Virus record (IMG/VR): IMGVR_UViG_3300021373_000885
Reading direction: 5' to 3' (one strand)
DNA: 20,000 bases
Origin: an uncultured virus (IMG/VR IMGVR_UViG_3300021373_000885)
Taxonomy: Duplodnaviria; Heunggongvirae; Uroviricota; Caudoviricetes
Below, piece by piece: positions 2,081-20,000 of this stretch (its first letter is position 1; every line of letters starts with the position of its first letter). Below the pieces are notes generated by a model that saw only the letters and a program-made list of their open reading frames with translations, made no database searches and was not told where the DNA came from. Both the position numbers and the translations under genes were made by a program.

Positions 2081-2092
2081 GATAGCCTCCTA

Positions 2093-2424: not shown

Positions 2425-2425
2425 T

Positions 2426-2449
2426 AAAAAAGGGAGCCGAAGCTCCCTT
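2426..2449 (-). terminator. Rho-independent terminator after the major capsid gene
   Basis: Minus strand AAGGGAGC-TTCG-GCTCCCTT followed by TTTT; cUUCGg tetraloop. Confidence 0.9.
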
Positions 2450-2465
2450 AGTAACCCAACGCAGA

Positions 2466-3374: not shown

Positions 3375-3386
3375 TAGTTATACTCC

Positions 3387-4058: not shown

Positions 4059-4081
4059 AATAAAACTCCTAAAAAATTAAA

Positions 4082-5532: not shown

Positions 5533-5542
5533 ATTATTCTCC

Positions 5543-5929
5543 TTATGACGCTCGTGCTACTGCACGGGGATCTGGCACTACAGCTTCTACTGAATCATCA
5601 TTCATCAGACGGAACTCTGTGTCACCAATTTTAAAACGCGTGCCAGTATTAGCACGGAACATTACATAATCACCTAACGCACACCAAGGGGTATCAAAAC
5701 GTTCTTTATCAGAATACGCTTCTGTGCCCATATCTATCACTAAACCAATAGTAGATAAGACATGATCTAAGTGTTGCTCTTTGCTAGATTTAATAATACG
5801 GGTGTCACCAAAAGTCTCTTCTACTTTAGGTAAAGCAACAAGTATTCTATACCCAACAGGTTTAGGTAAGCTCTCTTCGAGCTCTTTCTCATTTTCGGGA
5901 TCTCGCTGAACAATTTTTAAATCACTCAT
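5543..5929 (-). CDS. groES: GroES/Cpn10-like co-chaperonin
   Basis: KPVGYRILV...GLVIDMG...GDYVMF...GTRFKIGDTEFRLMNDDSVEAVV follows the Cpn10 pattern. Start reassigned to ATG 5929 using GGAGG at 5936-5940. Confidence 0.85.
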   Translation of the reverse strand: MSDLKIVQRDPENEKELEESLPKPVGYRILVALPKVEETFGDTRIIKSSKEQHLDHVLSTIGLVIDMGTEAYSDKERFDTPWCALGDYVMFRANTGTRFKIGDTEFRLMNDDSVEAVVPDPRAVARAS

Positions 5930-6116
5930 CATCATCCTCCAAATGTGTTTGCATCTCTGCAATAAAGTCTTTCGCAGATTTCAGTCCTCGGATAACCCCC
6001 ACGGTTTCTTTATATTGGGCGTAATCTTTGGCATTACCTGCAGCAAGATAGTATTCAGTGTTTTTAACACCGTCATCTATCTTCTCTATCAGCACGTCTA
6101 AGACGGTAGTAGCCAT
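5922..6116 (-). CDS. Small hypothetical protein downstream of portal
   Basis: 64 aa, helical, translationally coupled to the GroES-like gene. Confidence 0.75.
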   Translation of the reverse strand: MATTVLDVLIEKIDDGVKNTEYYLAAGNAKDYAQYKETVGVIRGLKSAKDFIAEMQTHLEDDDE

Positions 6117-6119
6117 AAG

Positions 6120-8567
6120 TTATTCCTTACGTTGTTTATTCATCGCATCAGACTCAGCCTTCATAAGATCTAAGTCCAGTTTAGTGTTAGCGGTACGTCT
6201 ATCTGCCGCCAGTTTAGCCCCAGCTTTCTGGGCATCAATCTCCAACTCCTGACGTTCAATATCCAGTTGTTGTTGGTCGATTTGGTTATCCATCTGATCT
6301 TTTTGAGCTTTACGTTGTACTTCAGCTTGTTTGATCTGACCCTCAAGTTGGTCTTTTTGAGCTTTAAGCTGCATCTCTTGTTGCTTGAGCTGCATCTCTT
6401 GTTGCTTGAGCTGGATAATAGGATCTTGTGCTTTTGCCTGCGCTTGTTGCGCTGCGGCTTGCTGTTGGTTCTGTGCTGATTGTTGTTGCCCTGCTTCCAT
6501 CGCTAGACGTGATAGTTCCACTTCTATCTCTGGTACCATTTCTTCGTTTGGTAGTGGCAACGGTGCACCTAGTTTCTTCTCTAGCTGTGCTCTGTAACGG
6601 AACCCAACGTGTTCTGCTATATGCGCCTGCAATGCTTGCATCATCTGCTGTGCCGCAGGGGTTTTACCCAATGCACCCACAACCATAGGATCTTGTAAGA
6701 ACGCTTGGTGGGTAGCAATATGAGCTTCATGGTCTTGGTTCAAGAACGCTTTTATGGGGGTGCCCGTTAGCGCGTTCATGTTCTCGCTGATCGGATCTGT
6801 TGGTTTTACATCGTCTTTCGTAGGTACCAACTTGTCCGCGTTTTTCACACCCAACACCTCAATCATCTGACGGTGTAACTGGGGAAGGTTATAAATCTGT
6901 GGTGCTTGCTGTGACATCTGCAATACAGTCTGATACTGAACTACACGCTGTGCCATAGTTGTACTATTAGGGTCACTTACTGGTATCACTTCGACCATCT
7001 CATAGTCTTGTCTACGAGCAGTAACTTCACCCCTAGTAGGTTCGTACCCATATTCCTCTGGCGCATTCTCTGCCATGATCTCTTTGAGCATGCGGAACTC
7101 TAACTTCATCGCATAATGCACACGAGCCTGTACAGCAGCCATAGGCTTCAATGTACGCTCTAATAAAGCTAGTGTAGTACCAACTGGCGCGTTCGCAGAC
7201 ATATCAGAGATGTCCATATCAGCCACTGCACCTAGTTTGCGGCCTTCTGTAGTAATCTGATTAAGTAGCGCTAGTAGGGTTTGGCTAGGCTCTTTATATG
7301 GTAGCGGCATAATGTTGTCACGTATGCTACCTGATGGCACATCTACGTCTTTAAACTCACCCGGCTCGATAGGCTCATCATCACCTTTAATGCGTAAACC
7401 ACGTGATTTTAGACCCCCCGGAAGGTTAGATAGTGTACCAGCGTCCACCAATTGCCGTATAATCGACGTTCCTGCTTTAGCGTACCCACCTATTATATGT
7501 ATCAGTCCAAGGCCGTAGAAGCCAAATCCGGGCACATATACGTAATGTACGAAATGCTGACGTTTCATTTCTAGTTCGTCGTCTTCTTCGTAATTACGTC
7601 TTATAGATAGTAGCTCACCTGTGCTACGCTCGATGGTGACTACGTATGGTTTAGCTAGGTCTTCTTCATCATCAATACCTTCGATGACTAGGTTTGCATG
7701 GATTTCGTATAACGTATAGCGATCATCACTGTTTAACTGATACCCAGCTTCTTCAGCCTTACGCTCTTCAATATCAGTCTGATACGGCGCTGGGTCATCC
7801 ATGTCTATATCAGAATAAAAACCATTAGCCTGCAGTCTACGTAAATCGTTTTTAGTCTTACGCATTACATGAGTTACACGCTCGGCCTCTTCGATGTTAG
7901 ATGCTCCATAAGGCACTATAACGTCTTCTGCTGGGATATAGATAGCACACTGTCTACCCATATTAGGGTCAAAGTAAACCTTCTTAAACGCCGATCCTGC
8001 AAGTCCTAGGCTATATAGCATACGTTCATGCTCCGGACGATACTCCACCATACGATCTGTTAGCTCGTAATTCATGTCTGCTTTTACGCGTTCAGCGGCT
8101 TCTTCTTTCTCACGAGTCTCTTTACCCAAGATTTTTACTTTTACTGGCCCCTGTGCAGGGAATGTTTCTGCCATAGCCTCTGCTTGAAAACGTATTGCAG
8201 CTTCTGCTAATACAGTGGAGTGTACCCCGCAGGCTCCTTCCCACGGTGCGGTACGCTCTTCATACTTAAATCCAAGGATGTCTAATCCCTTTACGTAAGT
8301 ATCAGCCCAGTCCTTACGGCTCTGTATGTCGGATTCTACTAACCCTAATAACTCATCTACAAGGATGTTCTTGTCACGCTCGTCTAGGTCATCCGCTAGA
8401 TTAGCGTCAAATTCTGATTCTTCTTCATCACCCGGCATCAAGATAACTTCAGCACTACCGTCATCTAAAATAACCGCATCAGGGTTTATAATCTCAATCT
8501 CTAACTCTTCCCCTGTTAGGTTCTCACCTTCAGGAGCTTCAGTCTGCAAACTTTTCTCAATAGCCAT
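6120..8567 (-). CDS. Portal protein with Q-rich C-terminal coiled coil
   Basis: 815 aa directly after terL. Size, position and the long Q-rich coiled-coil tail are typical of podovirus portals. Confidence 0.88.
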   Translation of the reverse strand: MAIEKSLQTEAPEGENLTGEELEIEIINPDAVILDDGSAEVILMPGDEEESEFDANLADDLDERDKNILVDELLGLVESDIQSRKDWADTYVKGLDILGFKYEERTAPWEGACGVHSTVLAEAAIRFQAEAMAETFPAQGPVKVKILGKETREKEEAAERVKADMNYELTDRMVEYRPEHERMLYSLGLAGSAFKKVYFDPNMGRQCAIYIPAEDVIVPYGASNIEEAERVTHVMRKTKNDLRRLQANGFYSDIDMDDPAPYQTDIEERKAEEAGYQLNSDDRYTLYEIHANLVIEGIDDEEDLAKPYVVTIERSTGELLSIRRNYEEDDELEMKRQHFVHYVYVPGFGFYGLGLIHIIGGYAKAGTSIIRQLVDAGTLSNLPGGLKSRGLRIKGDDEPIEPGEFKDVDVPSGSIRDNIMPLPYKEPSQTLLALLNQITTEGRKLGAVADMDISDMSANAPVGTTLALLERTLKPMAAVQARVHYAMKLEFRMLKEIMAENAPEEYGYEPTRGEVTARRQDYEMVEVIPVSDPNSTTMAQRVVQYQTVLQMSQQAPQIYNLPQLHRQMIEVLGVKNADKLVPTKDDVKPTDPISENMNALTGTPIKAFLNQDHEAHIATHQAFLQDPMVVGALGKTPAAQQMMQALQAHIAEHVGFRYRAQLEKKLGAPLPLPNEEMVPEIEVELSRLAMEAGQQQSAQNQQQAAAQQAQAKAQDPIIQLKQQEMQLKQQEMQLKAQKDQLEGQIKQAEVQRKAQKDQMDNQIDQQQLDIERQELEIDAQKAGAKLAADRRTANTKLDLDLMKAESDAMNKQRKE
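6367..6413. repeat. 21-bp tandem repeat (about 2.2 copies) encoding QLKQQEM heptads in the portal
   Basis: AGCTGCATCTCTTGTTGCTTG at 6367-6387 and 6388-6408, then a partial copy. Confidence 0.9.
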
Positions 8568-8577
8568 CGTTTAACCT

Positions 8578-10119
8578 CTAATAATATCCGACACTTCTTC
8601 TTTGGAAGTATTTAGTTTCTTCTGGCTCATCTGAAGGTAGCCGTATAAATCCGCCCTGCCTAAACCGCATAAGCGCCATAATTGTAGAATCCACCAAGTC
8701 ATCATTACTCATAAATGGGAATCCCGCTATTTCTTCTATAACTTCTTCTGCCCAGCGCGTCTGTGGTACCCAAACAAGTTCAGATGCGATAATATCAGAT
8801 ACAGAATTTAGTCTTGCTAGTTTATCACCAGATCCACGGTGAGGGGTATACTCTTGTATAACAAGCCCCATTCTCCGCATTTCTTGATACAATGCAACAC
8901 CTGAACTCTTTTTCTCTACAATAAACGCGTCAGGATCCCACATCGTATATTGTTCCATAGCCAATTCTTTTAGCTCAGGAAACTCTAAACGCTCTTTTAT
9001 ACTATTTAATAGTATGATGTTATGTGCATTTGTCTCTTCATTGAAAAATACACCCCAAGTAGTTAGCGCAGTGAAGTCAGCCCTATTATGTTTTTCTGCT
9101 GCAGAATCCAGTGACATAATAATATACTCACACATAGGAGGATTTTCTTTCTCCCATATCTGCCACCACTCTCTTTTTACAATAGCCGCTTCTTCTGCTG
9201 TTGGCTGCTGCTGATACTGTGCATTCCACTGGAACAACGGCATTGACGCTTTTGTACGTTCCAACGCCGCCATATCAAAAAACTCAGGCCACAACGGTTT
9301 CTCTATAAGTTCTCCAGTTTCACTATCTTCTACCTCAAGAACTGCAGGAAACTCCACAACTTCATACTGGTCAGATTTGTCATTCTGACTCATATCCTTA
9401 ACTACACGGCCCGTTAGATCATCCATGTGCCATCTAGTTTGGATAATTGCTACCCTACCACCGGGCATCAAACGTGTACGAGCACCAAATGTGAACCATT
9501 CGTACGCTTTTTCAAACACACTAAAGTTACCATTAATAACATCTTGCTCAGAATGTGGGTCATCTACCAATAATAGGTGTGCACCACGACCAGCTAGTGC
9601 CGATCCTACACCACATGCGTAGTATTCACCGCCCATATTGGTGTTCCAACGCCCTGCAGACTTAGAATCTGTAGCTAATTGTACTGTAGGAAATATGTCT
9701 TTATAGTCCTGTAAACCCAGTAAATTACGCACTTTTCGACCAAAATCTACCGCTAAATCGGTCGTATGCGACACCATCATCACTTTTTTGTCTGGATTTC
9801 GCCCTAAAAACCACGCTGGGAAGAAAATTGACACTAATTGTGACTTTCCGTGCCTAGGAGGGATGTTTACACAGGTACGATCCTTGGTTCCATTCTCTAA
9901 ACCCATCAACATATCCGCCAAAATGCGGTGATGTTTACCTACAATGTAATCTGGCTGCATTCTTTTGCAAAATTCTATCAAATCATCGTACGCATTCTTA
10001 TTTTTTCTACGGGAAGCTAACTCATCGACCATTTTATTGATCTCAGTAACCTCTTCTTCAGTAAAACTATCAAGATTGTCCAACATTTGCTGGATGTCTT
10101 CTTGTGTGAATTCACTCAT
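8578..10119 (-). CDS. terL: Terminase large subunit
   Basis: Walker A PPRHGKS, Walker B LLVDDP, motif IIQTRW, and RNase H-like nuclease acidic residues (LDSA, IVEKK, NDDLVDS). Confidence 0.95.
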   Translation of the reverse strand: MSEFTQEDIQQMLDNLDSFTEEEVTEINKMVDELASRRKNKNAYDDLIEFCKRMQPDYIVGKHHRILADMLMGLENGTKDRTCVNIPPRHGKSQLVSIFFPAWFLGRNPDKKVMMVSHTTDLAVDFGRKVRNLLGLQDYKDIFPTVQLATDSKSAGRWNTNMGGEYYACGVGSALAGRGAHLLLVDDPHSEQDVINGNFSVFEKAYEWFTFGARTRLMPGGRVAIIQTRWHMDDLTGRVVKDMSQNDKSDQYEVVEFPAVLEVEDSETGELIEKPLWPEFFDMAALERTKASMPLFQWNAQYQQQPTAEEAAIVKREWWQIWEKENPPMCEYIIMSLDSAAEKHNRADFTALTTWGVFFNEETNAHNIILLNSIKERLEFPELKELAMEQYTMWDPDAFIVEKKSSGVALYQEMRRMGLVIQEYTPHRGSGDKLARLNSVSDIIASELVWVPQTRWAEEVIEEIAGFPFMSNDDLVDSTIMALMRFRQGGFIRLPSDEPEETKYFQRRSVGYY

Positions 10120-10678
10120 CTACCGTCTCCGCGTCGATTACGACTGCGTCGTCATCAACTTCAGGCGGATTTATGAGCTTTTCTAGCTTTTTTCGTAGGT
10201 TTTTCTTCAAATCATCTGTTGATTGGTGTGTAACTGTAACTTCTGACTTCTCAGCGAACAAACTTACATCAGAAATTTTACCCAATAACTCCAATGCGCG
10301 AAGCCTTATCTTAGCATCAGGGTTTTCTGTCTCTAAAATCAGCTTATTTGTTATCAAATGTCGCACTGAGGTAGCAGATTCGACCACAGAACGGCCAAAT
10401 TCACTCAAAATGTTGTTTGTAAGTACCAAAGATGCCGGTGTTAACTCTGCAACACGCGATTTTGTAGCTTTTTTGGATGTTTTTTCGGGATCTTCTGCGT
10501 ATGACATGCTCAACATGCTCGCTACAGCCTCATCTTCAGCTGTAGGAGTCAAATCTAACCCTTCTTTCTCTAATTCTTTTGCCGTTACGGTAGCAGCACG
10601 CGCACGGACTGTTAAATCCACGGTAGGATCGTCGTCATACACTGGTACGCCATTCTCTGGCTCGAGCTTTATCGTCAT
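10112..10678 (-). CDS. Putative terminase small subunit
   Basis: 188 aa, helical, overlaps the terL start, contains the DAKIRLRALELLGK motif. Confidence 0.65.
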   Translation of the reverse strand: MTIKLEPENGVPVYDDDPTVDLTVRARAATVTAKELEKEGLDLTPTAEDEAVASMLSMSYAEDPEKTSKKATKSRVAELTPASLVLTNNILSEFGRSVVESATSVRHLITNKLILETENPDAKIRLRALELLGKISDVSLFAEKSEVTVTHQSTDDLKKNLRKKLEKLINPPEVDDDAVVIDAETVDE

Positions 10679-10710
10679 ATTTTAGTCGCAGGTTATTAAC
10701 CGTAGGCGTA

Positions 10711-10739
10711 TATATACCAAAAAGTTATAAAGAGCGCAA
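10711..10739 (-). promoter_or_regulatory. Putative sigma70 promoter for the packaging/structural operon (TTGCGC-17-TATATA)
   Basis: Minus strand: -35 at 10739-10734, -10 at 10716-10711, with TGn before the -10. Confidence 0.5.
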
Positions 10740-10847
10740 GTCATTACCAAAAATCATACAAAAAATAAATAATATACATGTGTTGGTATGACCTGCTTTG
10801 GTATATAATGGCGGCATTCCCAAAACACACTACCAACTGGAGATTCT

Positions 10848-10937
10848 ATGTATCCGGATATGTTCCTATTGTCTGCTTGTTTAGTTACTAGCTTAGGGCT
10901 TGTTTGCATTTACTTTGAAGATGATCTTCCCTTTTAA
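10848..10937 (+). CDS. Putative 29-aa membrane peptide MYPDMFLLSACLVTSLGLVCIYFEDDLPF
   Basis: GGAG RBS at 10839-10842 and TATAAT at 10804-10809. Hydrophobic core with an acidic tail. Overlaps the 3' end of the nuclease gene on the opposite strand. Confidence 0.45.
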   Translation: MYPDMFLLSACLVTSLGLVCIYFEDDLPF

Positions 10938-11340
10938 AGGATCTAAGTAGACTCATACCTTCTAACTCTTCTTCCCTTGTAAAATCCGAGGCGGTTAACC
11001 GTAGCTGCGTTTTTCCTTCTAGCTCTGCAACAGGTTTTACAATCATACGTTCTATATCTAATGCCACAAATACATAGAAATCAGCAATGTGAGCAGCACG
11101 TAAGTTAAAAGCATACCCGGAAAAAGCGGGTCGTTTGTTATGTTGATTGAAATGGCAGATGTTTGATGATTTGACTTGCACTGTGAATAACGATTGGTCT
11201 AACGATTGGCACCACAAGTCTATGCCGGATCGGTCTACATGGTGACACTCTATACCGTACTTCTCCAGCTTATATATGGCAAAGAACTCCCCGACACGTC
11301 CAACGTGACTCGTTTCTCCCTCTACCAAAAGCCGCCCCAT
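10888..11340 (-). CDS. PD-(D/E)XK endonuclease (free-standing homing-endonuclease-like)
   Basis: GRVGEFFA...L...G...DRSGIDL...VQVKS...ADFYVFV pattern. Start reassigned to ATG 11340 because the upstream extension crosses AT-rich, apparently noncoding DNA. Confidence 0.75.
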   Translation of the reverse strand: MGRLLVEGETSHVGRVGEFFAIYKLEKYGIECHHVDRSGIDLWCQSLDQSLFTVQVKSSNICHFNQHNKRPAFSGYAFNLRAAHIADFYVFVALDIERMIVKPVAELEGKTQLRLTASDFTREEELEGMSLLRSFKREDHLQSKCKQALS

Positions 11341-11506
11341 ACGTAACCTATTCAGATTTGGATCACTTCTAGAAAGTAACACACAAAAAATTTTTTGCAA
11401 GGCCTTTTTTAAACAAGGTGGGGGGTTTTCAGAAAAATACGATTTATTTGAGTAAATTAGTATATATACATCTGTGGGACTCCTAAACACAAAACGCGGG
11501 GGGTGG

Positions 11507-11526
11507 GGGGTGTAGCGCTACACCCC
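11507..11526. promoter_or_regulatory. 20-bp palindrome, copy 1 (perfect): GGGGTGTAGCGCTACACCCC
   Basis: Perfect inverted repeat 30 bp upstream of the -35 of the first right-arm promoter. Confidence 0.85.
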
Positions 11527-11556
11527 ATAATAGAGGGAACATGTTCCTATAGGATC

Positions 11557-11585
11557 TTGTACAAATGTGTAGGATTGTGTATAAT
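11557..11585 (+). promoter_or_regulatory. sigma70 promoter TTGTAC-17-TATAAT
   Basis: -35 at 11557-11562, -10 at 11580-11585, upstream of the 11662 ORF. Confidence 0.75.
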
Positions 11586-11661
11586 GGTGACTATCAACAG
11601 CGCTGATGCTGTTGTGGCTATAGGGCGAGCCATTACGCCCCATTAAATAGGAAATACTAAA

Positions 11662-12345
11662 ATGAGAAATTATACATATGATCTAGCAGGTAGAGTAAAC
11701 AGCACTATCATTGATTCAATTAATAACCATGCTGATGGAATCAAAGCAGTAGAGCAAGCCACTACTGACTTACAATCCACCGCAATTGCTAACTATCAGC
11801 TATTGCAATCGCAGGGCTTTATACCTACTGATTTACTCAGCCCCGATAAACAGTCTAAAGGTACATGTACTGAAGCTGAGTGGGTTTCTTTGATGTGCGC
11901 TAGAGCTGAGAAAATGTGGGGCAGTAATAGCGTTAAGTTTAAATCAGTGTGGCGATATATGAACGACCGCGACGGTATGACAGGCGCTGAGAAAAAGACT
12001 GCTAAGGAAAGCCACGTTAAATCAGTAAGGCGCTCACTCAAAGTAATATCAAAGGGCTATGCTGACTGGATTGCTGGTGGTAGTAAGTCGGCTGAAGAGG
12101 TACAGTCTGCCCCGCGCCAAGTAACACCTACTGAAGAGTTCATAGCCAAGCGCTTGAAATCAATTAAGAGTCGAGCTGATAAATCGGTTGATGAATTGAA
12201 AGCCAAGTATGACGATTTTGATATAGCAGTATTTAATCAATTACTTGAGCCAGTAGCAATGTATATTGATCGACTGGGCAAAGCCAAGCCCAACAGTAAG
12301 CAGGTTAGTTTTGATTCTAAAGGTAACCGTAGAAAGAAAAAGTAA
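11662..12345 (+). CDS. Hypothetical early protein (monocistronic, basic C-terminus)
   Basis: 227 aa with its own promoter, AGGA RBS and terminator. Confidence 0.85.
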   Translation: MRNYTYDLAGRVNSTIIDSINNHADGIKAVEQATTDLQSTAIANYQLLQSQGFIPTDLLSPDKQSKGTCTEAEWVSLMCARAEKMWGSNSVKFKSVWRYMNDRDGMTGAEKKTAKESHVKSVRRSLKVISKGYADWIAGGSKSAEEVQSAPRQVTPTEEFIAKRLKSIKSRADKSVDELKAKYDDFDIAVFNQLLEPVAMYIDRLGKAKPNSKQVSFDSKGNRRKKK

Positions 12346-12358
12346 CACTGCTACAACG

Positions 12359-12385
12359 GGAGCGCCTACGGGCGCTCCTTTTTTT
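12359..12385 (+). terminator. Rho-independent terminator
   Basis: GGAGCGCC-TACG-GGCGCTCC followed by T7; cUACGg loop. Confidence 0.92.
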
Positions 12386-12401
12386 GGCTTAAAAATTGGG
12401 C

Positions 12402-12486
12402 TATCGAAGCCAGTTCCCAAGCGTGGCGTTGAGTCTATGTACGACTTCAGCGTATCGAAGCCAGTTCCCAAGCGTGGCGTTGAGTC
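12402..12486. repeat. Two exact 34-bp direct repeats separated by 17 bp
   Basis: TATCGAAGCCAGTTCCCAAGCGTGGCGTTGAGTC at 12402-12435 and 12453-12486. Confidence 0.95.
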
Positions 12487-12493
12487 CAAGCAA

Positions 12494-12513
12494 GGGGTGT
12501 AATGTTACCCCCC
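12494..12513. promoter_or_regulatory. 20-bp palindrome, copy 2: GGGGTGTAATGTTACCCCCC
   Basis: Matches the consensus GGGG(T/G)GTA-N4-TAC(A/C)CCCC. Confidence 0.7.
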
Positions 12514-12911
12514 CAACCCGCACCGTTACTGCAATGTAACCTTTTATGGCTCTTTTGTAACCTAATGTTACCTTTTTTTTAGGCTAAAAGTTACAAAATA
12601 GTTTTGTGTGCGATTGTTAGCAGAGGTGAAGGGTATTGATACAACGATTGTGTGCGTTTATGTACTTTCTTACTATCTATCTATCTAAATCTTTATAATG
12701 TTACCTTTTTAAAAAAGTATATATATCCCCCTGTTCGAGGGCTCTCTGGCAGATTTCTTCCCACCATCACAACACACTTCAAAATATCACCTTTCAATTG
12801 TCGCAAAAAAGGTTACATTGTTACATTACGCACCACCAGTGGTCTGTAGCCAAAAAGCAAAAGTTACAAATGGGTTACAATACAAGGTTTTTGTAACACT
12901 CAAAAAGTTAC
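12504..12911. repeat. Cluster of GTTAC/GTAAC iteron-like repeats in AT-rich noncoding DNA (candidate replication origin)
   Basis: 13 GTTAC or GTAAC cores in about 410 bp, often flanked by A/T tracts. 14-bp inverted pair at 12532-12545 and 12807-12820. Confidence 0.6.
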
Positions 12912-12962
12912 ACCTTCACAATACTACACCTAAGTACAAACCCTGACGGAAAAATATACAAC

Positions 12963-12991
12963 TTGACATGAACCCCCATAAGTGGTATAAT
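12963..12991 (+). promoter_or_regulatory. Consensus sigma70 promoter TTGACA-17-TATAAT with extended -10 TG
   Basis: -35 at 12963-12968, TG at 12983-12984, -10 at 12986-12991. Confidence 0.92.
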
Positions 12992-13042
12992 AATACTTGT
13001 TCTGGTGATACTTCCAGAGCATTGGTGACGCTGTTCCCATAG

Positions 13043-13062
13043 GGGGGGTAGCGGTACACCCC
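13043..13062. promoter_or_regulatory. 20-bp palindrome, copy 3: GGGGGGTAGCGGTACACCCC
   Basis: Ends 18 nt before ATG 13081. Confidence 0.8.
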
Positions 13063-13080
13063 TTACTTACGAGGTGATAT

Positions 13081-13278
13081 ATGAAAAAGCTAGACTTCAA
13101 CAACAGTCTTTATTACCTGCTAATGGATCATGCAGGTATTGCAAGTGAGACCGATGGACAGCGACTAGCAGGTTGCAGTGTCGATCAAATGTTCGATGAC
13201 TTGTTACGCGATCAAGATCAGCCAGAGCCATTGGTGTTTACGGATAACTACAGCAAGCGAGGTAATCGTGATGACTAA
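13081..13278 (+). CDS. Hypothetical protein
   Basis: 65 aa, GAGGTG RBS, first gene after the strong promoter. Confidence 0.75.
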   Translation: MKKLDFNNSLYYLLMDHAGIASETDGQRLAGCSVDQMFDDLLRDQDQPEPLVFTDNYSKRGNRDD

Positions 13279-13435
13279 CGTGAAACATGAACGTGCAATG
13301 ATGTGGGTAGATGAGTTACAAAACTACATCGAATCACTTGATAGTATGCCTAAGTTATTGCAGAAGAATCTAGTTACTGAGCTAGACCTAATTGTGGTTG
13401 ACCTTATCCAATTCAAGGAGAGTGATGATGAGTGA
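13271..13435 (+). CDS. Hypothetical protein (54 aa, MTNVKHERAM...)
   Basis: Start reassigned to ATG 13271 (GAGGT RBS, overlaps the upstream stop). Confidence 0.65.
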   Translation: MTNVKHERAMMWVDELQNYIESLDSMPKLLQKNLVTELDLIVVDLIQFKESDDE

Positions 13436-13598
13436 TGTATACAAAGAGTGGCAAGCTGTCATGGACATGTACTGGAAAGAGCGCAAGCGTCTACACAAAG
13501 AGTATGTGTTGGGTAAATTAGATGGTGACTTAGCGTTGCCTGAAATAAATGAGGGGGGTAACACTACACCCCATAACGAGGAGAGTGATGATGAATAA
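13428..13598 (+). CDS. Hypothetical protein (MSDVYKEWQ...)
   Basis: AAGGAG RBS at 13415-13420, coupled to both neighbours. Confidence 0.65.
   Translation: MSDVYKEWQAVMDMYWKERKRLHKEYVLGKLDGDLALPEINEGGNTTPHNEESDDE
13553..13572. promoter_or_regulatory. 20-bp palindrome, copy 4: GGGGGGTAACACTACACCCC
   Basis: Inside the 3' end of the 13428 ORF; ends 18 nt before ATG 13591. Confidence 0.75.
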
Positions 13599-14496
13599 CA
13601 TAGCTAGTATGATTGATACGTCTGATGTACCGAGCCTATCGGCTTCGGGTATGTTGGTTGAGTTTAGTGCGAGTACTTGGGGTAACAACCGACAAGACAA
13701 GGAAGCGTCGAGACAGCTCGCACAGTTGAATGGTGCAGATATGGGTAGCGTATCGGCAAGTAAGAAGCTGATTGACCACCCATCACTGGACAAGATTAAC
13801 AAGGTAACACGTGAGATACGTAGGTGTTTGTACAAGTGGACAGTCAAGTGGTCTGACTTCAACAGCTACTTACCAGCACCGCATTATATCCCTTGTATGG
13901 ATGAGTACACAGAGTTAGCTAAGAGACACAGTGAGTATTGTGAGGAGTTCTTTGAAGCGTACGAGTTCCAGATGGCAGGTGCGCAGGGTAGGCTAGGTGC
14001 TATGTTCAAGTGGTCTGACTATCCTAGTATCGAGGAGATACGTAATCGGTTCGGTCTACGTCTCAACGTGTTCCCTGTACCTGAGAGTGGTGACTATCGA
14101 GTTGACATAGCCAATGAGCAGAAGGAAGCTATCAAGTCCAAGTTCGCAGAGTTCTATGAGAACAAGTTGCGTGAGATAGCTACCGATGTGTACACGCAAG
14201 TAGCTACGTCAGTAGATCATATGGTAGATACGCTGACCCGCTATACACAGAAGAAGCGTGACGGTGAGTTGACCAAGTTGAACAGTAGTCTTATTGACAA
14301 CATGTTACACCTACTGACAACGATGCGTGGGTTCAATGTCACCAATGACCCAGAGATAGAGCGCATACGCATGGACATGGAAGATGCAGTGCGTGGGTTG
14401 ACTATCGACCAGTTGAAAGTGAGTGAAGTAACACGATTGCAGACTATCGACAAGTTCAAAGCAATCAAAGCAACATTACCTACGTTGGACATCTAG
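13591..14496 (+). CDS. DUF3150-like protein
   Basis: MLVEFSASTW...ASKKLI...YPSIEEIRNRF pattern, located upstream of the AAA/VWA pair. GAGGAG RBS at 13578-13583. Confidence 0.65.
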   Translation: MNNIASMIDTSDVPSLSASGMLVEFSASTWGNNRQDKEASRQLAQLNGADMGSVSASKKLIDHPSLDKINKVTREIRRCLYKWTVKWSDFNSYLPAPHYIPCMDEYTELAKRHSEYCEEFFEAYEFQMAGAQGRLGAMFKWSDYPSIEEIRNRFGLRLNVFPVPESGDYRVDIANEQKEAIKSKFAEFYENKLREIATDVYTQVATSVDHMVDTLTRYTQKKRDGELTKLNSSLIDNMLHLLTTMRGFNVTNDPEIERIRMDMEDAVRGLTIDQLKVSEVTRLQTIDKFKAIKATLPTLDI

Positions 14497-14497
14497 T

Positions 14498-14671
14498 ATG
14501 GATAACTTCGTAGAGTGTGAACGGTGGCGTGGTACGCAGTTGTATCATGTCGCTGAACGTAGTGGGAACGTGTCCGTACGTATACTGAGGAACAAGCGTA
14601 CCAAGCACGTACCCGCAAGTCTGAGGGGTGTAGCGTTACACCCCATTAACCAAGTAAACCGAGGAAAGTAA
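14498..14671 (+). CDS. Possible 57-aa hypothetical protein (MDNFVECERWRGTQ...)
   Basis: Fills the gap between the DUF3150-like stop and the AAA start with 1-nt spacing on each side; no clear RBS. Confidence 0.4.
   Translation: MDNFVECERWRGTQLYHVAERSGNVSVRILRNKRTKHVPASLRGVALHPINQVNRGK
14625..14644. promoter_or_regulatory. 20-bp palindrome, copy 5: GGGGTGTAGCGTTACACCCC
   Basis: Ends 28 nt before the AAA ATPase start. Confidence 0.85.
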
Positions 14672-14672
14672 A

Positions 14673-15773
14673 ATGAACAATACAATTTATGATTTATCAA
14701 TGACTGAGTGCTGTGACCTTATCGAGCATGTAGGTGGTAAGCGTACCGTTGAGGTGTGTGGTGCGTTGGGTAGTGGTAAGACACAAGGTATACGTGCAGA
14801 GATGCAACGTAGATTCCCTGACCACATATACATTGAGTTCGATTGTACCAACAAAGATATACAAGATCTGTCTGTGCCTAAGTTTATGAAAGCACTTGAA
14901 GACCATATATCTGACTACGTTGAGTTCGTACCTAACAGTGAGTTGGGTGTGCATCTGGGCAAGCCAATCATACTTAACTTCGATGAGATGGGTAAGGCAT
15001 CACCTACATTGAAGAAAGGTACTAGGCGTGTGTATCACGAGCGAGCAGTCAACGGTATCAAGCTACCCGAAGGTAGCATAGTATATATGACTTCCAATCT
15101 AGGCAGTGAGGGGTTGGGTGATGGTATGCCCGCACACCAACGTAATACAATCATACGTGTACGTATGCGCAAGCCTAATGCAGAGGAGTGGATTGATTGG
15201 GGTATGAACAACGACATTGACCCTGCTGTACTCGGTTGGGTTCGTGAGTTCCCCCAAGTGTTACAGTCCTATGAAGATGTAGCTGACCCTGCTGACAACG
15301 AGTACATACATGACCCGCGTGTACAACGTGATGGTGTGTGTACCGCACGTACGCTACACATGGTGAGTGATCTACTACATGTACGTGACAAGTTATCACC
15401 TACGGCTCTGACTGGTGCGATGATTGGTACTATCGGTATGCGTGGTGCGCTCGACTTACAGGCATTCGTTGCAATGGCTGACCAACTACCCACCCTTGAC
15501 TCTATCAAGAATGATCCTTCCAATGCACGTGTACCTGACAGTGCTAGTGCTGTGTGTCTGGTTGTATACCGTGCATTGTCTATGCTCGAACGTGGTTGGT
15601 TCAGTGCATGGTGTAAGTACCTAGAACGTCTGAGTGCAGAGGCACAAGCGTTGTTCATTATGAATGCCACCAAAGGTACATACAAACATCAATCGTGGGT
15701 TATGACACAACCAGAGTTCGGTAAGTGGTGTATGACACATGGACATCTAGTTCGTCGCACTGATGACGTGTAG
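14673..15773 (+). CDS. MoxR/dynein-related AAA+ ATPase
   Basis: Walker A GALGSGKT, Walker B ILNFDE, sensor MTSN, CTART (usually PRSW-like). Adjacent to a VWA gene. Confidence 0.88.
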   Translation: MNNTIYDLSMTECCDLIEHVGGKRTVEVCGALGSGKTQGIRAEMQRRFPDHIYIEFDCTNKDIQDLSVPKFMKALEDHISDYVEFVPNSELGVHLGKPIILNFDEMGKASPTLKKGTRRVYHERAVNGIKLPEGSIVYMTSNLGSEGLGDGMPAHQRNTIIRVRMRKPNAEEWIDWGMNNDIDPAVLGWVREFPQVLQSYEDVADPADNEYIHDPRVQRDGVCTARTLHMVSDLLHVRDKLSPTALTGAMIGTIGMRGALDLQAFVAMADQLPTLDSIKNDPSNARVPDSASAVCLVVYRALSMLERGWFSAWCKYLERLSAEAQALFIMNATKGTYKHQSWVMTQPEFGKWCMTHGHLVRRTDDV

Positions 15774-15782
15774 GGGGTAATC

Positions 15783-17027
15783 ATGTTACTAAGTAAAAAG
15801 CTGACAGTCGAAGATCGTGTCAAGCGTGCGCGTATCAAAATCGTTGACAGCACCGACTTCCCTGAGTTCCGAGCAATGGCGGGTCTTATCATGGTTGGTG
15901 ATACTACGTTTGTTGATGGCGACCACAAGATCAAGACTGCGTGTACCAATGGTCGTGATGAGTGGTACAACCGAGACTTCGTTGACACACTTAGCGATGC
16001 GCAACTACGTGGTGTGGTACTACATGAGAATTATCACATACAGTACCGACACCTTACTACGTGGGAACATCTGTGGAAGATAGATGCGCAACTGGCTAAC
16101 ATGGCGGCTGACTACGTTATCAACCTACAGATATTCACACCCGAACGTGTCAAAGCTAAGTTCGTTGATATGATTGACGGTATGCTGTACGACACCAAGT
16201 ATGAGGGTCTTGACGTTGCACAAGTGTTTAGGCAACTACGCCAAGACAAGCAAGACCAACAAGACTCTGGTGGTGATAGCGGTAATGAGGGGGGTAGCGG
16301 TACACCCTTTGACGGTGACTCGTTTGACACACACGACTGGGAAGGTGCGCAAGAGATGACCGATGCAGAGCGTGGTGAGTTAGAGCGTGAGATTGACCAA
16401 GCCATACGTCAAGGCAGTATGATGGCGGGTAAGACAGGTAGTGGTGGCAATCGAATGTTCGATGAGTTACTGAGTGCGCAAGTCAACTGGCGTGATGCAC
16501 TACGTGACTTCATTACTGACACATGTTCGGGCAATGACTATTGTTCATACGTCAAACCTGACAGACGGTTCTTGCAATACGACATGTATGTACCAAGTGG
16601 TGTATCCGATCAAGTCGATGAGTTAGTCATTGCGATTGACACAAGTGGCTCCATTGGCGGTGACGAAATCACTTGCATGCTATCTGAGGTACGCGGTATA
16701 TGCGAGACAGTACCACCCAAGCGTGTACGCATACTGTACTGGGATACTGAGGTGTGTCGTGATGAGGTGTATGAGTTACATCAGTTACCTGAACTAGTAC
16801 AGTCAACCAAGCCTGCGGGTGGCGGTGGTACTGACGTTACATGTGTACCCAAGTGGCTGACTAACAAGAACATATCACCACAAGCGACAATCATACTCAC
16901 TGACGGGTATCTGTACGGTGGTTGGGGTGATTGGTCGTGTCCAACACTGTGGTGCATACTCGACAACAAGAGTGCTGTGCCTGACTGTGGTAAAGCAATA
17001 CACATTAAATCGGGAGATATGAGATGA
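15783..17027 (+). CDS. HExxH metallopeptidase-like domain plus VWA domain protein (DUF2201-like)
   Basis: TACTNG, LHENYH, NMAADYVIN; G/S/D linker; MIDAS DTSGS, GGGTD, ILTDG. Confidence 0.88.
   Translation: MLLSKKLTVEDRVKRARIKIVDSTDFPEFRAMAGLIMVGDTTFVDGDHKIKTACTNGRDEWYNRDFVDTLSDAQLRGVVLHENYHIQYRHLTTWEHLWKIDAQLANMAADYVINLQIFTPERVKAKFVDMIDGMLYDTKYEGLDVAQVFRQLRQDKQDQQDSGGDSGNEGGSGTPFDGDSFDTHDWEGAQEMTDAERGELEREIDQAIRQGSMMAGKTGSGGNRMFDELLSAQVNWRDALRDFITDTCSGNDYCSYVKPDRRFLQYDMYVPSGVSDQVDELVIAIDTSGSIGGDEITCMLSEVRGICETVPPKRVRILYWDTEVCRDEVYELHQLPELVQSTKPAGGGGTDVTCVPKWLTNKNISPQATIILTDGYLYGGWGDWSCPTLWCILDNKSAVPDCGKAIHIKSGDMR
16289..16308. promoter_or_regulatory. 20-bp palindrome, copy 6 (intragenic): GGGGGGTAGCGGTACACCCT
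   Basis: 19/20 identical to copy 3; encodes part of EGGSGTP in the linker of the peptidase-VWA protein. Confidence 0.7.
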
Positions 17028-17209
17028 GTGAATCATTTGGTATGGGCATGGAAGCCGTACATCGACGCATGGAGTGGGACATTGCAGTCCAAGAAGTACA
17101 AAAGGCAGTGGAGTTTCGGTTAGATGCTATGACAACACGTTATGACAAATCAACCGAAGAAGATAGAGAACGCCTTGCGCAAGCATGGGCAAGAATACTA
17201 CAAGGGTAA
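17024..17209 (+). CDS. Hypothetical protein
   Basis: 61 aa, ATGA overlap, GGGAG RBS. Confidence 0.75.
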   Translation: MSESFGMGMEAVHRRMEWDIAVQEVQKAVEFRLDAMTTRYDKSTEEDRERLAQAWARILQG

Positions 17210-17248
17210 GGTACATCTTACCCCCTATTTACTACGAGGAAATATGTT

Positions 17249-18220
17249 ATGGCTTTATACTTTTACAATCTAAATACGTTTGACATGGTGGCAGACCACT
17301 ACAACAACACCAAACCAATACGCACAACAGGTGAGGTGCCGTTGGGTGATCGTGCGCGTAAGTGGGAACAAGTTGTCAAGGTCAACAAGAACAAGTATGT
17401 GTTCGTTGATTGGTATCGCCCAATCCCTGATGGTGAATCTATTAATGACAGCTTGTTCTGGGAACGGTACTTGTCCGAGTGTGTCAAGCGACCTGCTGTA
17501 GAATGGCGCAAGTTACGTAATGGTAAGGAACGTATGAAGGTGTTCAATGAGAGTGGCGATGGTGCGCACAATGGTAGGTACTCGTTCCTGTATCGTGCCA
17601 CGCCAAGAATGTTTAACTTCACTGTTGAGAATGGTAAGCAGTACGTCACTATGCCTGATGGTAACAAGCAGTACCTACCTAAGTCTAGGACAATACCCAA
17701 ACGTGTTTACGATGGTACCAAAGGCTCTCAATGGTTCCAAAAGCAAAACTACACCCCTCGTTGCGATGGTGCATACTTAGAGTTCGAGCGTGACCCTGAC
17801 ACTAGCGAGTGGACACTAATACATGGCGACCATGCACTACCTGTTAGGCGTACACGTATCGACACCGAAGCCAAGAAACCATACCGCAAGCACATCAAGG
17901 GCTTTGTCGAGTGGGCTTGGATGGTGCGCGACTTTCTTATACCTGATATAGGTGACTGGAAGAGCATGTCTCAACACCGCTCAAAATCTATTGATTATAT
18001 ATCTAATGTACACAAGTTCCGCGAAGTGCTTACAGATACAGAGCATGAAGATCGCGTACATGTACTTGCTGACATGCTCAATGACATGTGTAAGTACGAC
18101 TGGGATAAGCACTGTAACTGTGTCACTTCTGACCCTAGCAAGTTCCGTTCACAACTCAACACTAGAATCAATCGTCTCGGTGGATTCAACATCAACTCAA
18201 TTGAAATGAAGGAGAAGTAA
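17249..18220 (+). CDS. Hypothetical protein
   Basis: 323 aa, GAGGA RBS. Confidence 0.85.
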   Translation: MALYFYNLNTFDMVADHYNNTKPIRTTGEVPLGDRARKWEQVVKVNKNKYVFVDWYRPIPDGESINDSLFWERYLSECVKRPAVEWRKLRNGKERMKVFNESGDGAHNGRYSFLYRATPRMFNFTVENGKQYVTMPDGNKQYLPKSRTIPKRVYDGTKGSQWFQKQNYTPRCDGAYLEFERDPDTSEWTLIHGDHALPVRRTRIDTEAKKPYRKHIKGFVEWAWMVRDFLIPDIGDWKSMSQHRSKSIDYISNVHKFREVLTDTEHEDRVHVLADMLNDMCKYDWDKHCNCVTSDPSKFRSQLNTRINRLGGFNINSIEMKEK

Positions 18221-18221
18221 G

Positions 18222-19253
18222 ATGGTACAATCAGTAGTTATGCGAGACAAGAACCACAATCGCGCATCAGTGATTGAGGTAAAGGAACTCAAACGTGATT
18301 GGGCAGACCGCCCCTCTAGGTACGTTGTGGTGGACAAGGATTTATGTGAACGTGACTTCAACACTGAGTTTTACCGAATGGTGCGTGACTTTGTACTGGC
18401 TAGTACGAAACATATACCCGACTGTCTAGCTGTGTATGACAGGCGAGAGGATGATGTGTATATATACAGAGATGCTGACTTGTTTGTTCTGGGTAAATTA
18501 TTCATAACATACAATGAAGATAACGTGACACAATATAATGTAACATCGCACCTTATATCTAATAAGAGGTATTGCCCACACTCAAGTCCAAGAGATTACC
18601 GTACTCTTACATCTACTAAATTCGACAAGGCTGTACGTAATGCACGTACCTACCTTCGTGGGAACACGTTGCAGGATATAGCTAGGTGTACGGTAGAGAA
18701 GATGTCCTCTAGCTGTAATGTTATGATTGATGGCTTCCAACGAGAGGCTAACAAAGCCTTGCATGCTTTGGGTGTTGATAGAACAATATATAACAGGCAC
18801 AGTGACCATGAAGAACCACCCGTACTAAAGGAACTTACTAGGTTACATGAACTAGGCACAGTGTCCTTTATGGACAGTAGTGTTGGTGAGAACTTAGATA
18901 AGTATCGTGAGAACTTTGAGACTATGAAAGAACTTGCAAGATTCACGGTAGCTACGTTGTGTCATGTGTACAAGAACCACAGAGATGTTGAAGTTATAGA
19001 GTATCACGATGTATTCACAGACCAATACTCTAACCCCACCTGTATTAGTGACCCCAGTGCTACCGACTTAGACCGACTGACATTCTATAGTGAGAATTAC
19101 TGTTGTAGTCCAACCTTAGTACCTGCCGAAGAAGCTGACCCCCACATGCAAACACAGATAGCATCCCTTGCAGTGTTACCTGACCAGACATTCGTACGAG
19201 GGTTGGGTTACAAACTTAACGAGAGCATATACTATGTCACAAAACCCAATTAA
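18222..19253 (+). CDS. Hypothetical protein
   Basis: 343 aa, AAGGAG RBS. Confidence 0.85.
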   Translation: MVQSVVMRDKNHNRASVIEVKELKRDWADRPSRYVVVDKDLCERDFNTEFYRMVRDFVLASTKHIPDCLAVYDRREDDVYIYRDADLFVLGKLFITYNEDNVTQYNVTSHLISNKRYCPHSSPRDYRTLTSTKFDKAVRNARTYLRGNTLQDIARCTVEKMSSSCNVMIDGFQREANKALHALGVDRTIYNRHSDHEEPPVLKELTRLHELGTVSFMDSSVGENLDKYRENFETMKELARFTVATLCHVYKNHRDVEVIEYHDVFTDQYSNPTCISDPSATDLDRLTFYSENYCCSPTLVPAEEADPHMQTQIASLAVLPDQTFVRGLGYKLNESIYYVTKPN

Positions 19254-19476
19254 ACTTACTGTTGTAAGGAACTTGTACACAGACCAAATAAATGTCACAC
19301 AAACTTATGGAGATGTTGACATTGGTATTTGTGGTGACTATAGTTATGATGAATTGCCCGAATGGCTACGTGCCAAACTAGCTACCCTTGATGTGTTGTG
19401 TAACCTAGAACATGTTGAGGGATTAGGCTATAGGTTTGGTGGTGGTAAATATTTGGTTGAACATACGGCTGACTGA
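19234..19476 (+). CDS. Hypothetical protein (80 aa) similar to the C-terminus of the upstream protein
   Basis: Start reassigned to ATG 19234. Shares a P..(L/M)...(L/I)A.L.VL.....V.GLGY(K/R) motif with the upstream protein. Confidence 0.7.
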   Translation: MSQNPIKLTVVRNLYTDQINVTQTYGDVDIGICGDYSYDELPEWLRAKLATLDVLCNLEHVEGLGYRFGGGKYLVEHTAD

Positions 19477-19504
19477 AGCCAGTCCCCGACAATAATAAGA
19501 GAGA

Positions 19505-19524
19505 GGGGGGTAGCGTTACCCCCC
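19505..19524. promoter_or_regulatory. 20-bp palindrome, copy 7: GGGGGGTAGCGTTACCCCCC
   Basis: Ends 18 nt before ATG 19543. Confidence 0.85.
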
Positions 19525-19542
19525 TAAATCAAGGAGTTAACA

Positions 19543-19869
19543 ATGGCTATGACCCCAGAACGTAAGGTCAAGAAGAAAGTAGCCGACTATTTAAAAAGTA
19601 TTGGTGCGTACTTTTTCTACCCCGCAACAGGTGGGTACGGTAGAAGTGGTGTGCCTGACATAGTCGGTTGTTATAAAGGAAGGTTCTTTGGTATTGAGTG
19701 TAAGGCGGGTAAGAATAAACCCACCGAGTTACAGAAGAATGAATTAAAACAAATAATTCAAGCGGGTGGTATTGCAACTGTGACGAACGAGGATACACTA
19801 CATGCCCTTCAATATATTTTAAATGACTTACCTGAACCTGACCCCAACCAATTGGAACTAGACTTATGA
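19543..19869 (+). CDS. VRR-NUC domain nuclease (Holliday junction resolvase-like)
   Basis: PERKVK...GVPDIV...FFGIECKA...PTELQ motifs; AAGGAG RBS. Confidence 0.9.
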   Translation: MAMTPERKVKKKVADYLKSIGAYFFYPATGGYGRSGVPDIVGCYKGRFFGIECKAGKNKPTELQKNELKQIIQAGGIATVTNEDTLHALQYILNDLPEPDPNQLELDL

Positions 19870-20000
19870 CCGAATTAGTATCAAACCCTGTAGTAAAAGC
19901 TGAACTTGAACCCATTGACGTAGCGATACGCAAAGAGCGCAAACGTGTGTGGGATTTAGAAGATGAAACTGGTGAAGAAGTAAACTCTAACTGGTTAGAG
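19866..20000 (+). CDS. Hypothetical protein (truncated at the window edge)
   Basis: ATGA overlap with the VRR-NUC stop; frame MTELVSNPVVKAELEPIDVAIRKERKRVWDLED... stays open to the end. Confidence 0.6.
   Translation, partial: MTELVSNPVVKAELEPIDVAIRKERKRVWDLEDETGEEVNSNWLE

What the first reader, a model, noticed from the sequence alone, without database searches (positions are those of the whole stretch)
11403..20000. Sharp boundary in restriction-site content: CCGG, GGCC and GCWGC missing from the right arm
Seen by manual scan: roughly 20 CCGG and roughly 20 GGCC sites, plus many GCAGC/GCTGC, in 1-11,404 (last CCGG near 11225, last GGCC at 11401). I found none of the three words in the remaining 8.6 kb, although GATC, GCGC, CGCG and GTAC occur there. 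Established: phage DNA that enters the cell first is often depleted of host restriction sites. Inference: the right arm enters first and unprotected, and encodes or precedes an anti-restriction or modification function that lets the rest of the genome keep the sites. The hypothetical early proteins are therefore anti-RM candidates, and the host probably has HpaII/MspI-, HaeIII- and TseI-like systems.
Basis: partly seen in the sequence, partly recalled or inferred. Interest (0 to 1): 0.72.

Follow-up and report, generated by a model that had tools for sequence, protein, structure and literature searches.

The report
Restriction-site-free entry end of marine phage
The early genes of this uncultured marine phage, and of most of its close relatives, have lost the short DNA words that bacterial restriction enzymes cut, probably because this end of the genome enters the cell first, before the phage can protect its DNA.

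Summary
CCGG, GGCC and GCWGC occur 21, 19 and 29 times in 1-11,402 and never in 11,403-20,000. Synonymous-codon shuffles expect 16.1 coding sites; 0 of 2000 shuffles reached 0. CCWGG and GGWCC are absent from the whole window.

The window is part of an uncultured aquatic phage family of about 55-70 kb, distantly HTVC023P-like. The edge lies where head genes and early genes diverge. Eight of 12 near-complete relatives have a hole at the same place, with different words. Pooled over nine genomes the profile is a sawtooth: observed/expected about 1.0-1.4 before terS, 0.06 just after, back to 0.95 near 26 kb, still low past the convergent strand switch. No methyltransferase was found in 12 genomes.

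Best reading (0.7): fixed-polarity entry with restriction selection on the leading DNA, as known for T5 and Autographiviridae. The genome ends, the host and the protecting factor are not shown. A phage-specific palindrome array co-varies with the first early gene.

The parts
11405..20000 (+). Stretch without CCGG, GGCC or GCWGC (one GCSGC at 16,104; GATC halved). Runs off the window; in relatives it continues through polymerase and helicase genes and fades at about 21-27 kb from terS.
   Evidence: relatives
1..11404 (-). Late head and packaging arm with normal site density: MCP 2466-3374, GroES 5543-5962, portal 6120-8567, TerL 8578-10119, presumed TerS 10112-10678 (by position; no family hit), nuclease-like ORF 10888-11490. 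Inferred last-entering DNA.
   Evidence: TerS and nuclease labels are inference
11507..11526 (.). First of 7 copies of a 20-bp palindrome (GGGG-K-GTA-N4-TAC-M-CCCC), all in the right arm: 11507, 12494, 13043, 13553, 14625, 16289, 19505. Four lie 38-48 bp (first base to start codon) before a gene. Likely operators.
   Evidence: 8 matches at up to 3 mismatches vs 0.14 expected, 0 of 200 shuffles
11558..11585 (+). Sigma70-like promoter (10 of 12) in front of ORF1
   Evidence: consensus match only
11662..12345 (+). ORF1: 227 aa, pI 9.5, hypervariable, followed by its own terminator (12358-12389). Co-varies with the palindrome type across relatives, so likely the protein that binds it. A relative's ORF1 folds as all-helical with no structural match.
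12402..12930 (.). Conserved non-coding block: a 34-bp tandem pair (12402, 12453), then about 13 GTTAC/GTAAC repeats in both orientations around an AT-rich core. Origin-like or packaging-signal-like; sits at the foot of the site-density ramp.
   Evidence: function inferred
12963..12991 (+). Perfect sigma70 consensus promoter (12 of 12, extended -10) pointing into the site-free block; a second (11 of 12) at 19316-19344
   Evidence: conserved in L001 and L002
13081..13598 (+). Three small acidic ORFs (65, 54, 56 aa; pI 4.4-4.6) directly behind the strong promoter, found only in the closest clade. Positional candidates for a counter-defence function.
   Evidence: no family hits
13591..17027 (+). 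Three-gene module: DUF3150-like (13591-14496, below Pfam cut-off), P-loop ATPase (14673-15773, phrog_1297), DUF2201 metallopeptidase-VWA (15783-17027). Same domain set as the IncC hde locus, but only distantly similar.
17024..19869 (+). Unknown early ORFs (61, 323, 343, about 100 aa) and an Hjc/VRR-type nuclease (19543-19869)

Best explanation
The virion DNA has a fixed leading end at the divergent junction between terS and the early genes, and it enters the cell early-genes-first and gradually. Shown: the hole, its polarity, its lineage-specific words, rightward host-type promoters, and no methyltransferase in the families tested. Inferred: host restriction systems cut DNA that is inside before protection is established, so selection has removed their words completely from the first 10-12 kb and less and less out to about 25 kb. 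Later DNA keeps the words because an early gene product or an injected virion protein has by then blocked the enzymes. CCWGG and GGWCC are removed everywhere, so whatever targets them is not blocked. Words in ORF1 and just behind it are partly tolerated, as expected if that piece is terminally redundant or the end lies just past it. Protector candidates, none demonstrated: the three small acidic ORFs, the DUF3150-ATPase-DUF2201 module, and the 2,100-2,500-aa last late protein.
For: 0 vs 16.1 coding sites on the right, 57 vs 57.1 on the left. Same hole at the orthologous place in G002, G020, L001, L002. Different words at the same place: CCGG+GANTC in G008 and G012; GCWGC+GANTC+CCGG in G011; GCWGC in G009 and G013; GCWGC+GATC+CCGG in G015. 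Pooled observed/expected per 2 kb: 1.20, 1.23, 1.36, 1.03 before terS; then 0.23, 0.06, 0.07, 0.18, 0.12, 0.21, 0.22, 0.35, 0.41, 0.30, 0.48, 0.52, 0.74, 0.95; control words 0.85-1.56. Still 0.57 in the first 2 kb beyond the convergent strand switch (37 vs 64.8, p about 1e-4). Ala-Ala 1 vs 8.6, Pro-Gly 0 vs 5.1, Gly-Pro 0 vs 5.1 in right-arm proteins; these pairs force GCNGC, CCNGG, GGNCC. No methyltransferase in 12 genomes. Tested precedents: T5-like phages (PMC10644984, passages) and Murciavirus (PMC12455610, abstract and passages).
Against: No physical end was mapped. Binned contig depth rose over about 11.7-12.7 kb in 2 of 4 runs, but single-position depth was only about 1.3-1.5-fold and one run dropped there. 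Four of 12 near-complete relatives (G004-G007) had no GC-rich palindrome below p=0.002, and G007 and G013 show no CCSGG effect. Five more distant cultured relatives show no such hole. No known anti-restriction gene was found; Vcrx090 has no counterpart in the two early proteins tested. The pooled genomes are related, so bins are not independent, and G005's two words were chosen by eye. T5 and T7 show only partial depletion of 4-5-mers in their first 8-10 kb, so this signal is stronger than in the models invoked.
Confidence: 0.7

Rival explanations
1. Same polar entry, but the threat is methyl-directed. The words are targets of host solitary methyltransferases, progeny DNA carries the marks, and a methyl-directed nuclease in the next host cuts the first-entering marked DNA.
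For: GANTC, GATC and CCWGG, avoided in the family, are the classic CcrM, Dam and Dcm words (recalled). The phages encode no methyltransferase of the families tested.
Against: CCGG, GGCC, GCWGC and GGWCC are best known as Type II sites (recalled). No host or methylome data were obtained.
Confidence: 0.13
2. Timing of exposure, not of entry. The whole genome enters quickly, but late DNA is coated or sequestered (for example by the injected giant proteins), while the early arm must be open for host RNA polymerase and is therefore cut.
For: The hole coincides with the rightward arm, its promoters and palindromes. G002 encodes 2,134- and 5,302-aa late proteins; the first matches the C-terminal part of a PHROG labelled DarB-like antirestriction (E 8e-39).
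Against: Depletion weakens steadily along the arm and crosses the strand switch into the last late gene, which a transcription-unit rule does not predict.
Confidence: 0.08
3. Mosaic history. The early arm came as a module from phages that avoid these words everywhere, and the boundary is a recombination junction.
For: DNA identity to G002 is 87% up to position 11,511 and about 66-80% in patches beyond. ORF1 and its palindromes are swapped between close relatives.
Against: The hole covers conserved polymerase and helicase genes, fades gradually, enters the last late gene and recurs with different words in separate lineages.
Confidence: 0.05
4. Composition or mutation: amino-acid and codon use of early genes, or deamination of 5-methylcytosine, removes the words without selection.
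For: Early proteins have less Ala (6.0 vs 9.7%) than late ones.
Against: Shuffles that keep proteins and codons still expect 16.1. Deamination products are not enriched on the right (CCAG/CTGG 28 vs 42.5; GGTC/GACC 43 vs 47.1). GANTC and GATC, usually adenine-methylated (recalled), behave the same way in other lineages.
Confidence: 0.02

Closest known systems
T5/BF23 first-step-transfer DNA (Tequintavirus)
   Same: Restriction matters only for sites in the first-injected roughly 10 kb; sites elsewhere are tolerated by an unknown mechanism without base modification (PMC10644984, passages).
   Different: T5 has a 10-kb terminal repeat, an injection stop and A1/A2. None of the window's early proteins hit such families. 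The profile here is a ramp over about 25 kb, not a step. T5's first 9.7 kb is only partly depleted of 4-5-mers, for example CCNGG 3 of 56.
Autographiviridae leading region (Murciavirus; T7)
   Same: Only motifs in the early-injected region confer sensitivity; host-type promoters point inward from the leading end (PMC12455610, abstract and passages; T7 map).
   Different: That study concerns one Type I motif in RNA-polymerase-encoding, one-directional genomes. Here several palindromic words vanish together in a two-armed genome; no RNA polymerase was seen in the G002 proteins scanned.
IncC/SXT hde locus (Vcrx089-090 anti-Type I; neighbours DUF3150 and VWA)
   Same: AAA ATPase, DUF3150 and HExxH-linker-VWA genes lie together in a locus that acts on entry into a new host (PMC7498323, passages; map).
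   Different: ATPase similarity is weak (profile probability 74%, 127 columns). DUF3150 23% over 230 aa, E 0.006. No Vcrx090 match in the two proteins tested. The published activity is against Type I, and the module also occurs in relatives with little or no hole.
HTVC023P-type pelagiphages and Pag-Yong1/MinM2
   Same: Capsid 62-71% identical, TerL 40-48%. Pag-Yong1 has the same divergent layout with an ATPase-VWA module, a 'large polyvalent protein' and an annotated SAM lyase in its early block.
   Different: Different replication modules, and no regional restriction-word hole. The window's own group (TerL about 78-96%) has no cultured member in the phage collection searched.
Dispersed repressor-operator arrays (phiC31 conserved inverted repeats, L5 stoperators; recalled)
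   Same: Many copies of one phage-specific site across the early region, paired with one variable gene.
   Different: ORF1 has no sequence or fold match; an Atlas hit to phiC31 repressor c scored 0.80, which is chance level. No integrase was seen among the G002 proteins scanned.

Membership tests
Leading-region restriction-site avoidance | Sites depleted locally beyond codon and composition expectation | tested here: met
Leading-region restriction-site avoidance | Depletion is polar and at a fixed place across relatives | tested here: met
   8 of 12 near-complete genomes at p<0.002, CCSGG low in 9 of 12 at p<=0.05
Leading-region restriction-site avoidance | Depleted DNA begins at a fixed physical end that enters first | tested here: inconclusive
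   Only assembled contigs were available. The distant Caulobacter phage RW record has a 2,940-bp end repeat from within terL to the divergent junction.
Leading-region restriction-site avoidance | A site added early, but not late, makes the phage sensitive | not testable with these tools
   needs a cultured phage-host pair
T5-like two-step injection | Step-shaped boundary at the far side of the first-transferred DNA | tested here: not met
   recovery is gradual from 0.06 to 0.95 over about 24 kb
T5-like two-step injection | A1/A2 transfer genes in the first-transferred DNA | tested here: not met
   no such PHROG or Pfam hits for the window's early proteins
Methyltransferase-protected phages | Encoded C5 or N6/N4 DNA methyltransferase | tested here: not met
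   0 of 12 genomes for PF00145, PF01555 and PF05869, controls positive; the window's own genome is not held beyond the window and G001
Vcrx089-090 anti-restriction system | CbbQ/AAA_5 ATPase orthologous to Vcrx089 | tested here: inconclusive
   only the P-loop region aligns; no AAA_5 or CbbQ_C Pfam hit
Vcrx089-090 anti-restriction system | Adjacent Vcrx090 homologue | tested here: not met
   the 323- and 343-aa proteins do not match; the gene next to the ATPase is DUF2201
DarB-like injected antirestriction protein | Methyltransferase and helicase domains in a large virion protein | tested here: not met
   G002's 2,134-aa protein has no Pfam hit and matches only the C-terminal roughly 700 positions of phrog_10089

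The most novel reading that the evidence does not exclude
The sawtooth records a slow, transcription-driven entry paced by ORF1 bound to the palindrome array. During entry an unnamed early product (one of the small acidic ORFs or the DUF3150-ATPase-DUF2201 module) shuts off several unrelated Type II enzymes at once without methylating the DNA. That would be a broad-spectrum anti-Type II mechanism in a phage family unrelated to T5, with a handful of candidate genes.
Probability: 0.2. Interest if true: 0.8.

Novelty: new variant of a known kind. Interest (0 to 1): 0.55.

Why it matters
The principle is in print for T5-like phages and Autographiviridae. What differs here is its form: several words at once, zero sites over 10 kb or more, a graded recovery over about 25 kb, lineage-specific word sets, and loss of Ala-Ala, Pro-Gly and Gly-Pro from the early proteins.

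If the reading is right, the profile gives the entry end, the entry direction and the host's defence words for uncultured phages from sequence alone. How T5 tolerates sites in its late DNA is stated as undetermined in PMC10644984. This family poses the same question with about ten early genes and no methyltransferase, which makes a screen for a general anti-restriction factor small. The ORF1-palindrome pairs, swapped between phages whose ATPases are 94-97% identical, are a separate testable regulatory system.

Tried and rejected
Own genome not held. Nearest record G001 covers only window 1-7,008 and further late genes, where the three words occur at normal density.

Terminus mapping: all listed runs were assembled contigs. 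Binned depth over about 11.7-12.7 kb was 31-39 vs 19.5-25 in X1 and 23-32 vs 12-13 in X2, but single-position depth at 12,135 was 29.1 and 16.1, X5 fell to 3.7 in one bin and X3 was too thin. This is a weak hint of a short terminal repeat at most.

Host: 13 genome-bin hits to TerL from mixed taxa, no usable assignment. The metagenome scan gave one irrelevant locus.

ORF1: 6 close homologues and 5 profile hits; Atlas neighbours unnamed. A relative's ORF1 modelled at pLDDT 89 with no match at E<=0.001 in the viral or PDB library. The wider structural search and the dimer prediction were never run, so fold relatives and dimer state stay open. The 323-aa protein had Atlas scores of 0.86 or less.

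No RNA-polymerase-type DxDxD motif is conserved in the 2,100-2,500-aa proteins. GC skew flips with gene strand and adds nothing. All 6-bp palindromes together show no hole in the window (117 left, 106 right).

Three look-ups of earlier scan findings returned nothing. Literature searches showed no paper on this pattern in this family; the library lacks most subscription papers, and I opened no supplements.
Full report
Observation. They are the most depleted 4- and 5-mers of the right arm under its own Markov model. Shuffling synonymous codons among the 12 right-arm genes gives 16.1 expected sites against 0 seen (0 of 2000 shuffles); the 14 left-arm genes give 57.1 against 57. That test is conservative, because the proteins themselves have changed. 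Ala-Ala, Pro-Gly and Gly-Pro, which force GCNGC, CCNGG and GGNCC, occur 1, 0 and 0 times against 8.6, 5.1 and 5.1 and rank 2nd to 4th of 400 dipeptides; Lys-Asp ranks first and is unexplained. CCWGG and GGWCC are absent from both arms, and GATC is halved on the right.

Context. The left arm holds minus-strand head genes (capsid, GroES, portal, TerL, presumed TerS). The right arm holds plus-strand small genes, a DUF3150-like gene, an ATPase, DUF2201 and an Hjc-type nuclease. The capsid is 62-71% identical to HTVC023P-type and Pag-Yong1/MinM2 phages and TerL 48% or less to any cultured phage in the collection. Uncultured relatives with TerL at about 78-96% are numerous. The complete relative G002 (66.2 kb, circular assembly) shows the layout: one arm of early and replication genes for about 19 kb, one opposite late arm, divergent at terS and convergent after the primase.

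The pattern is family-wide. G002 lacks the same three words from about 54.3 to 42.6 kb, and CCWGG and GGWCC everywhere. Of 12 near-complete relatives, 8 have GC-containing palindromes depleted at p<0.002 in the 11 kb after terS, with different word sets. G004, G005, G006 and G007 do not; G004 and G005 list only AT-rich words. CCWGG occurs at most twice in each of the 12. Pro-Gly is nearly absent from the early proteins of all 15 sequences tested (0-2 against 4-8). CCSGG is low in the early 12 kb in 9 of 12 genomes at p<=0.05, but not in G006, G007 or G013. Eighty ATPase-centred loci show further sets, for example CCGG, GGCC, GCNGC, GCGC and CGCG in L184, L168 and L169. Five more distant cultured phages show no such hole.

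Shape. I pooled 18 word-genome pairs from 9 genomes, with codons redrawn from genome-wide usage and normalised to the far late arm. Words were picked on the 2.5-10 kb stretch; G005's two words were picked by eye. Observed/expected is 1.03-1.36 in the 8 kb before terS, 0.23 in the first 2 kb, 0.06-0.22 to 14 kb, 0.30-0.52 to 24 kb, 0.74, then 0.88-1.17; unselected words stay at 0.85-1.56. Beyond the convergent junction, inside the last late gene on the other strand, the ratio is 0.57, 0.77, 0.72 and 0.85 before reaching 1.0. The genomes are related, so the p-values are optimistic. A sharp edge on one side and a slow recovery across a strand switch is what ordered entry from a fixed end predicts. 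A swapped module or a transcription-unit rule predicts an edge at the junction.

Where the edge lies. Residual sites per kb per word, over 24 sequences: 1.55 between terS and ORF1, 0.58 in ORF1, 0.71 and 0.38 in the next 300 and 500 bp, 0.14, then 0.08. L151 keeps 5 GGCC inside ORF1 and 2 just behind it, and L002 keeps 4 CCGG inside ORF1. In window terms the ramp runs from about 11.5 to 13.1 kb. It covers ORF1, a conserved block of GTTAC/GTAAC repeats around an AT-rich core and a perfect sigma70 consensus at 12,963 pointing into the hole. Tolerance of sites here fits a terminally redundant piece or an end just past ORF1 (inference). Contig depth did not settle it. The distant Caulobacter phage RW is deposited with a 2,940-bp end repeat running from inside terL to the divergent junction; the passages of PMC11053796 that I saw do not say it is a physical end. 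From general knowledge, packaging that starts near terS and follows late transcription packs the early arm last, and last-packed DNA leaves first; this agrees with the polarity seen.

What protects the rest. Not a methyltransferase of the three families tested: 0 of 12 genomes, and a crude motif scan agreed. Leads: (a) three small acidic ORFs right behind the strong promoter, found only in the closest clade; (b) the DUF3150-ATPase-DUF2201 module, which resembles in make-up the IncC hde locus, where Vcrx089-090 block Type I restriction on entry (PMC7498323, passages; map), but similarity is distant, Vcrx090 is unmatched, and the module is present in relatives with a weak hole; (c) the last late protein, with a conserved HExxH-like motif and a C-terminal match to a PHROG labelled DarB-like. 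None is shown.

A second feature. Seven copies of one 20-bp palindrome lie only in the right arm. Most relatives with a long enough stretch have their own palindrome, typically 3-11 copies within 14 kb of terS. ORF1's nearest neighbour shares the palindrome class in 24 of 27 hand-classed cases, against 19 of 27 for the ATPase. G011 vs L132/L137 and L145 vs G012/L140 have ATPases 94-97% identical but different palindromes and unrelated ORF1s. ORF1 is basic and its family folds as all-helical with no structural match. A regulator-operator pair is the likely reading; binding is untested. It marks the same early block but is not tied to which words are lost.

Known parallels. T5-like phages are restricted only through sites in first-step DNA, and how the rest escapes is open (PMC10644984, passages; bioRxiv 10.1101/866236, passages). 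Murciaviruses are sensitive to a Type I system only through leading-region motifs, and the authors expect no such effect with headful packaging (PMC12455610, abstract and passages). PMC10149686 (passages) gives no termini for CRP-901/902. T5's first 9.7 kb and T7's first 8 kb show partial 4-5-mer depletion only. Enzyme names attached to words are recalled, not looked up.

Verdict. A real, selected, polar loss of restriction-type words from the presumed leading arm: known in principle, new in family, strength and shape. Ends, host and protector remain to be shown.

Noticed in passing
window 11507-19524 (7 copies) and relatives: Phage-specific dispersed palindrome that co-varies with ORF1; whole arrays of about 7-11 sites differ between phages whose ATPases are 94-97% identical.
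   Followed up: partly
window 12402-12930: 34-bp tandem pair plus an array of GTTAC/GTAAC repeats in both orientations around an AT-rich core; more conserved than ORF1 DNA. Many relatives carry an AATGTTC-type variant. Origin or packaging signal; resemblance to P4 origin repeats is recalled only.
   Followed up: partly
whole window and 12 near-complete relatives: CCWGG occurs 0-2 times per genome in all 12, GGWCC 0-2 times in 4 of 12 and 0 in the window: a genome-wide tier of avoidance separate from the polar one.
   Followed up: partly
G002 9561-25469 (L105:562-16470): 5,302-aa late protein with about 1,600 aa of coiled coil; the equivalent in several relatives is 1,400-1,960 aa.
   Followed up: no
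window 438-1788: Cluster of small, very basic proteins with repeated YKxGG motifs next to the capsid gene; possible DNA-condensing or internal proteins.
   Followed up: no
window 10888-11490: Nuclease-like ORF (phrog_5018) between terS and the junction, present in only some relatives, 92% identical in G002.
   Followed up: no
window right-arm proteins: Lys-Asp is the most depleted dipeptide (2 vs 12.9) and GTAC is enriched (71 vs 44.6); neither is explained.
   Followed up: no
L005 / G015 58627-59664: The ATPase match in this relative contains one TGA stop; two genes, a broken gene or recoding was not examined.
   Followed up: no
L232 (Pag-Yong1) 25453-38032: Early block annotated with a SAM lyase and an AcrVA2-like gene beside the ATPase-VWA module; GANTC and GTAC are avoided genome-wide, which is worth checking against the stated cyanobacterial host.
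   Followed up: no
L243: TerL relative (46%) 1.5 kb from the start of a 466-kb Pseudomonas bin contig; possible prophage or chimera.
   Followed up: no
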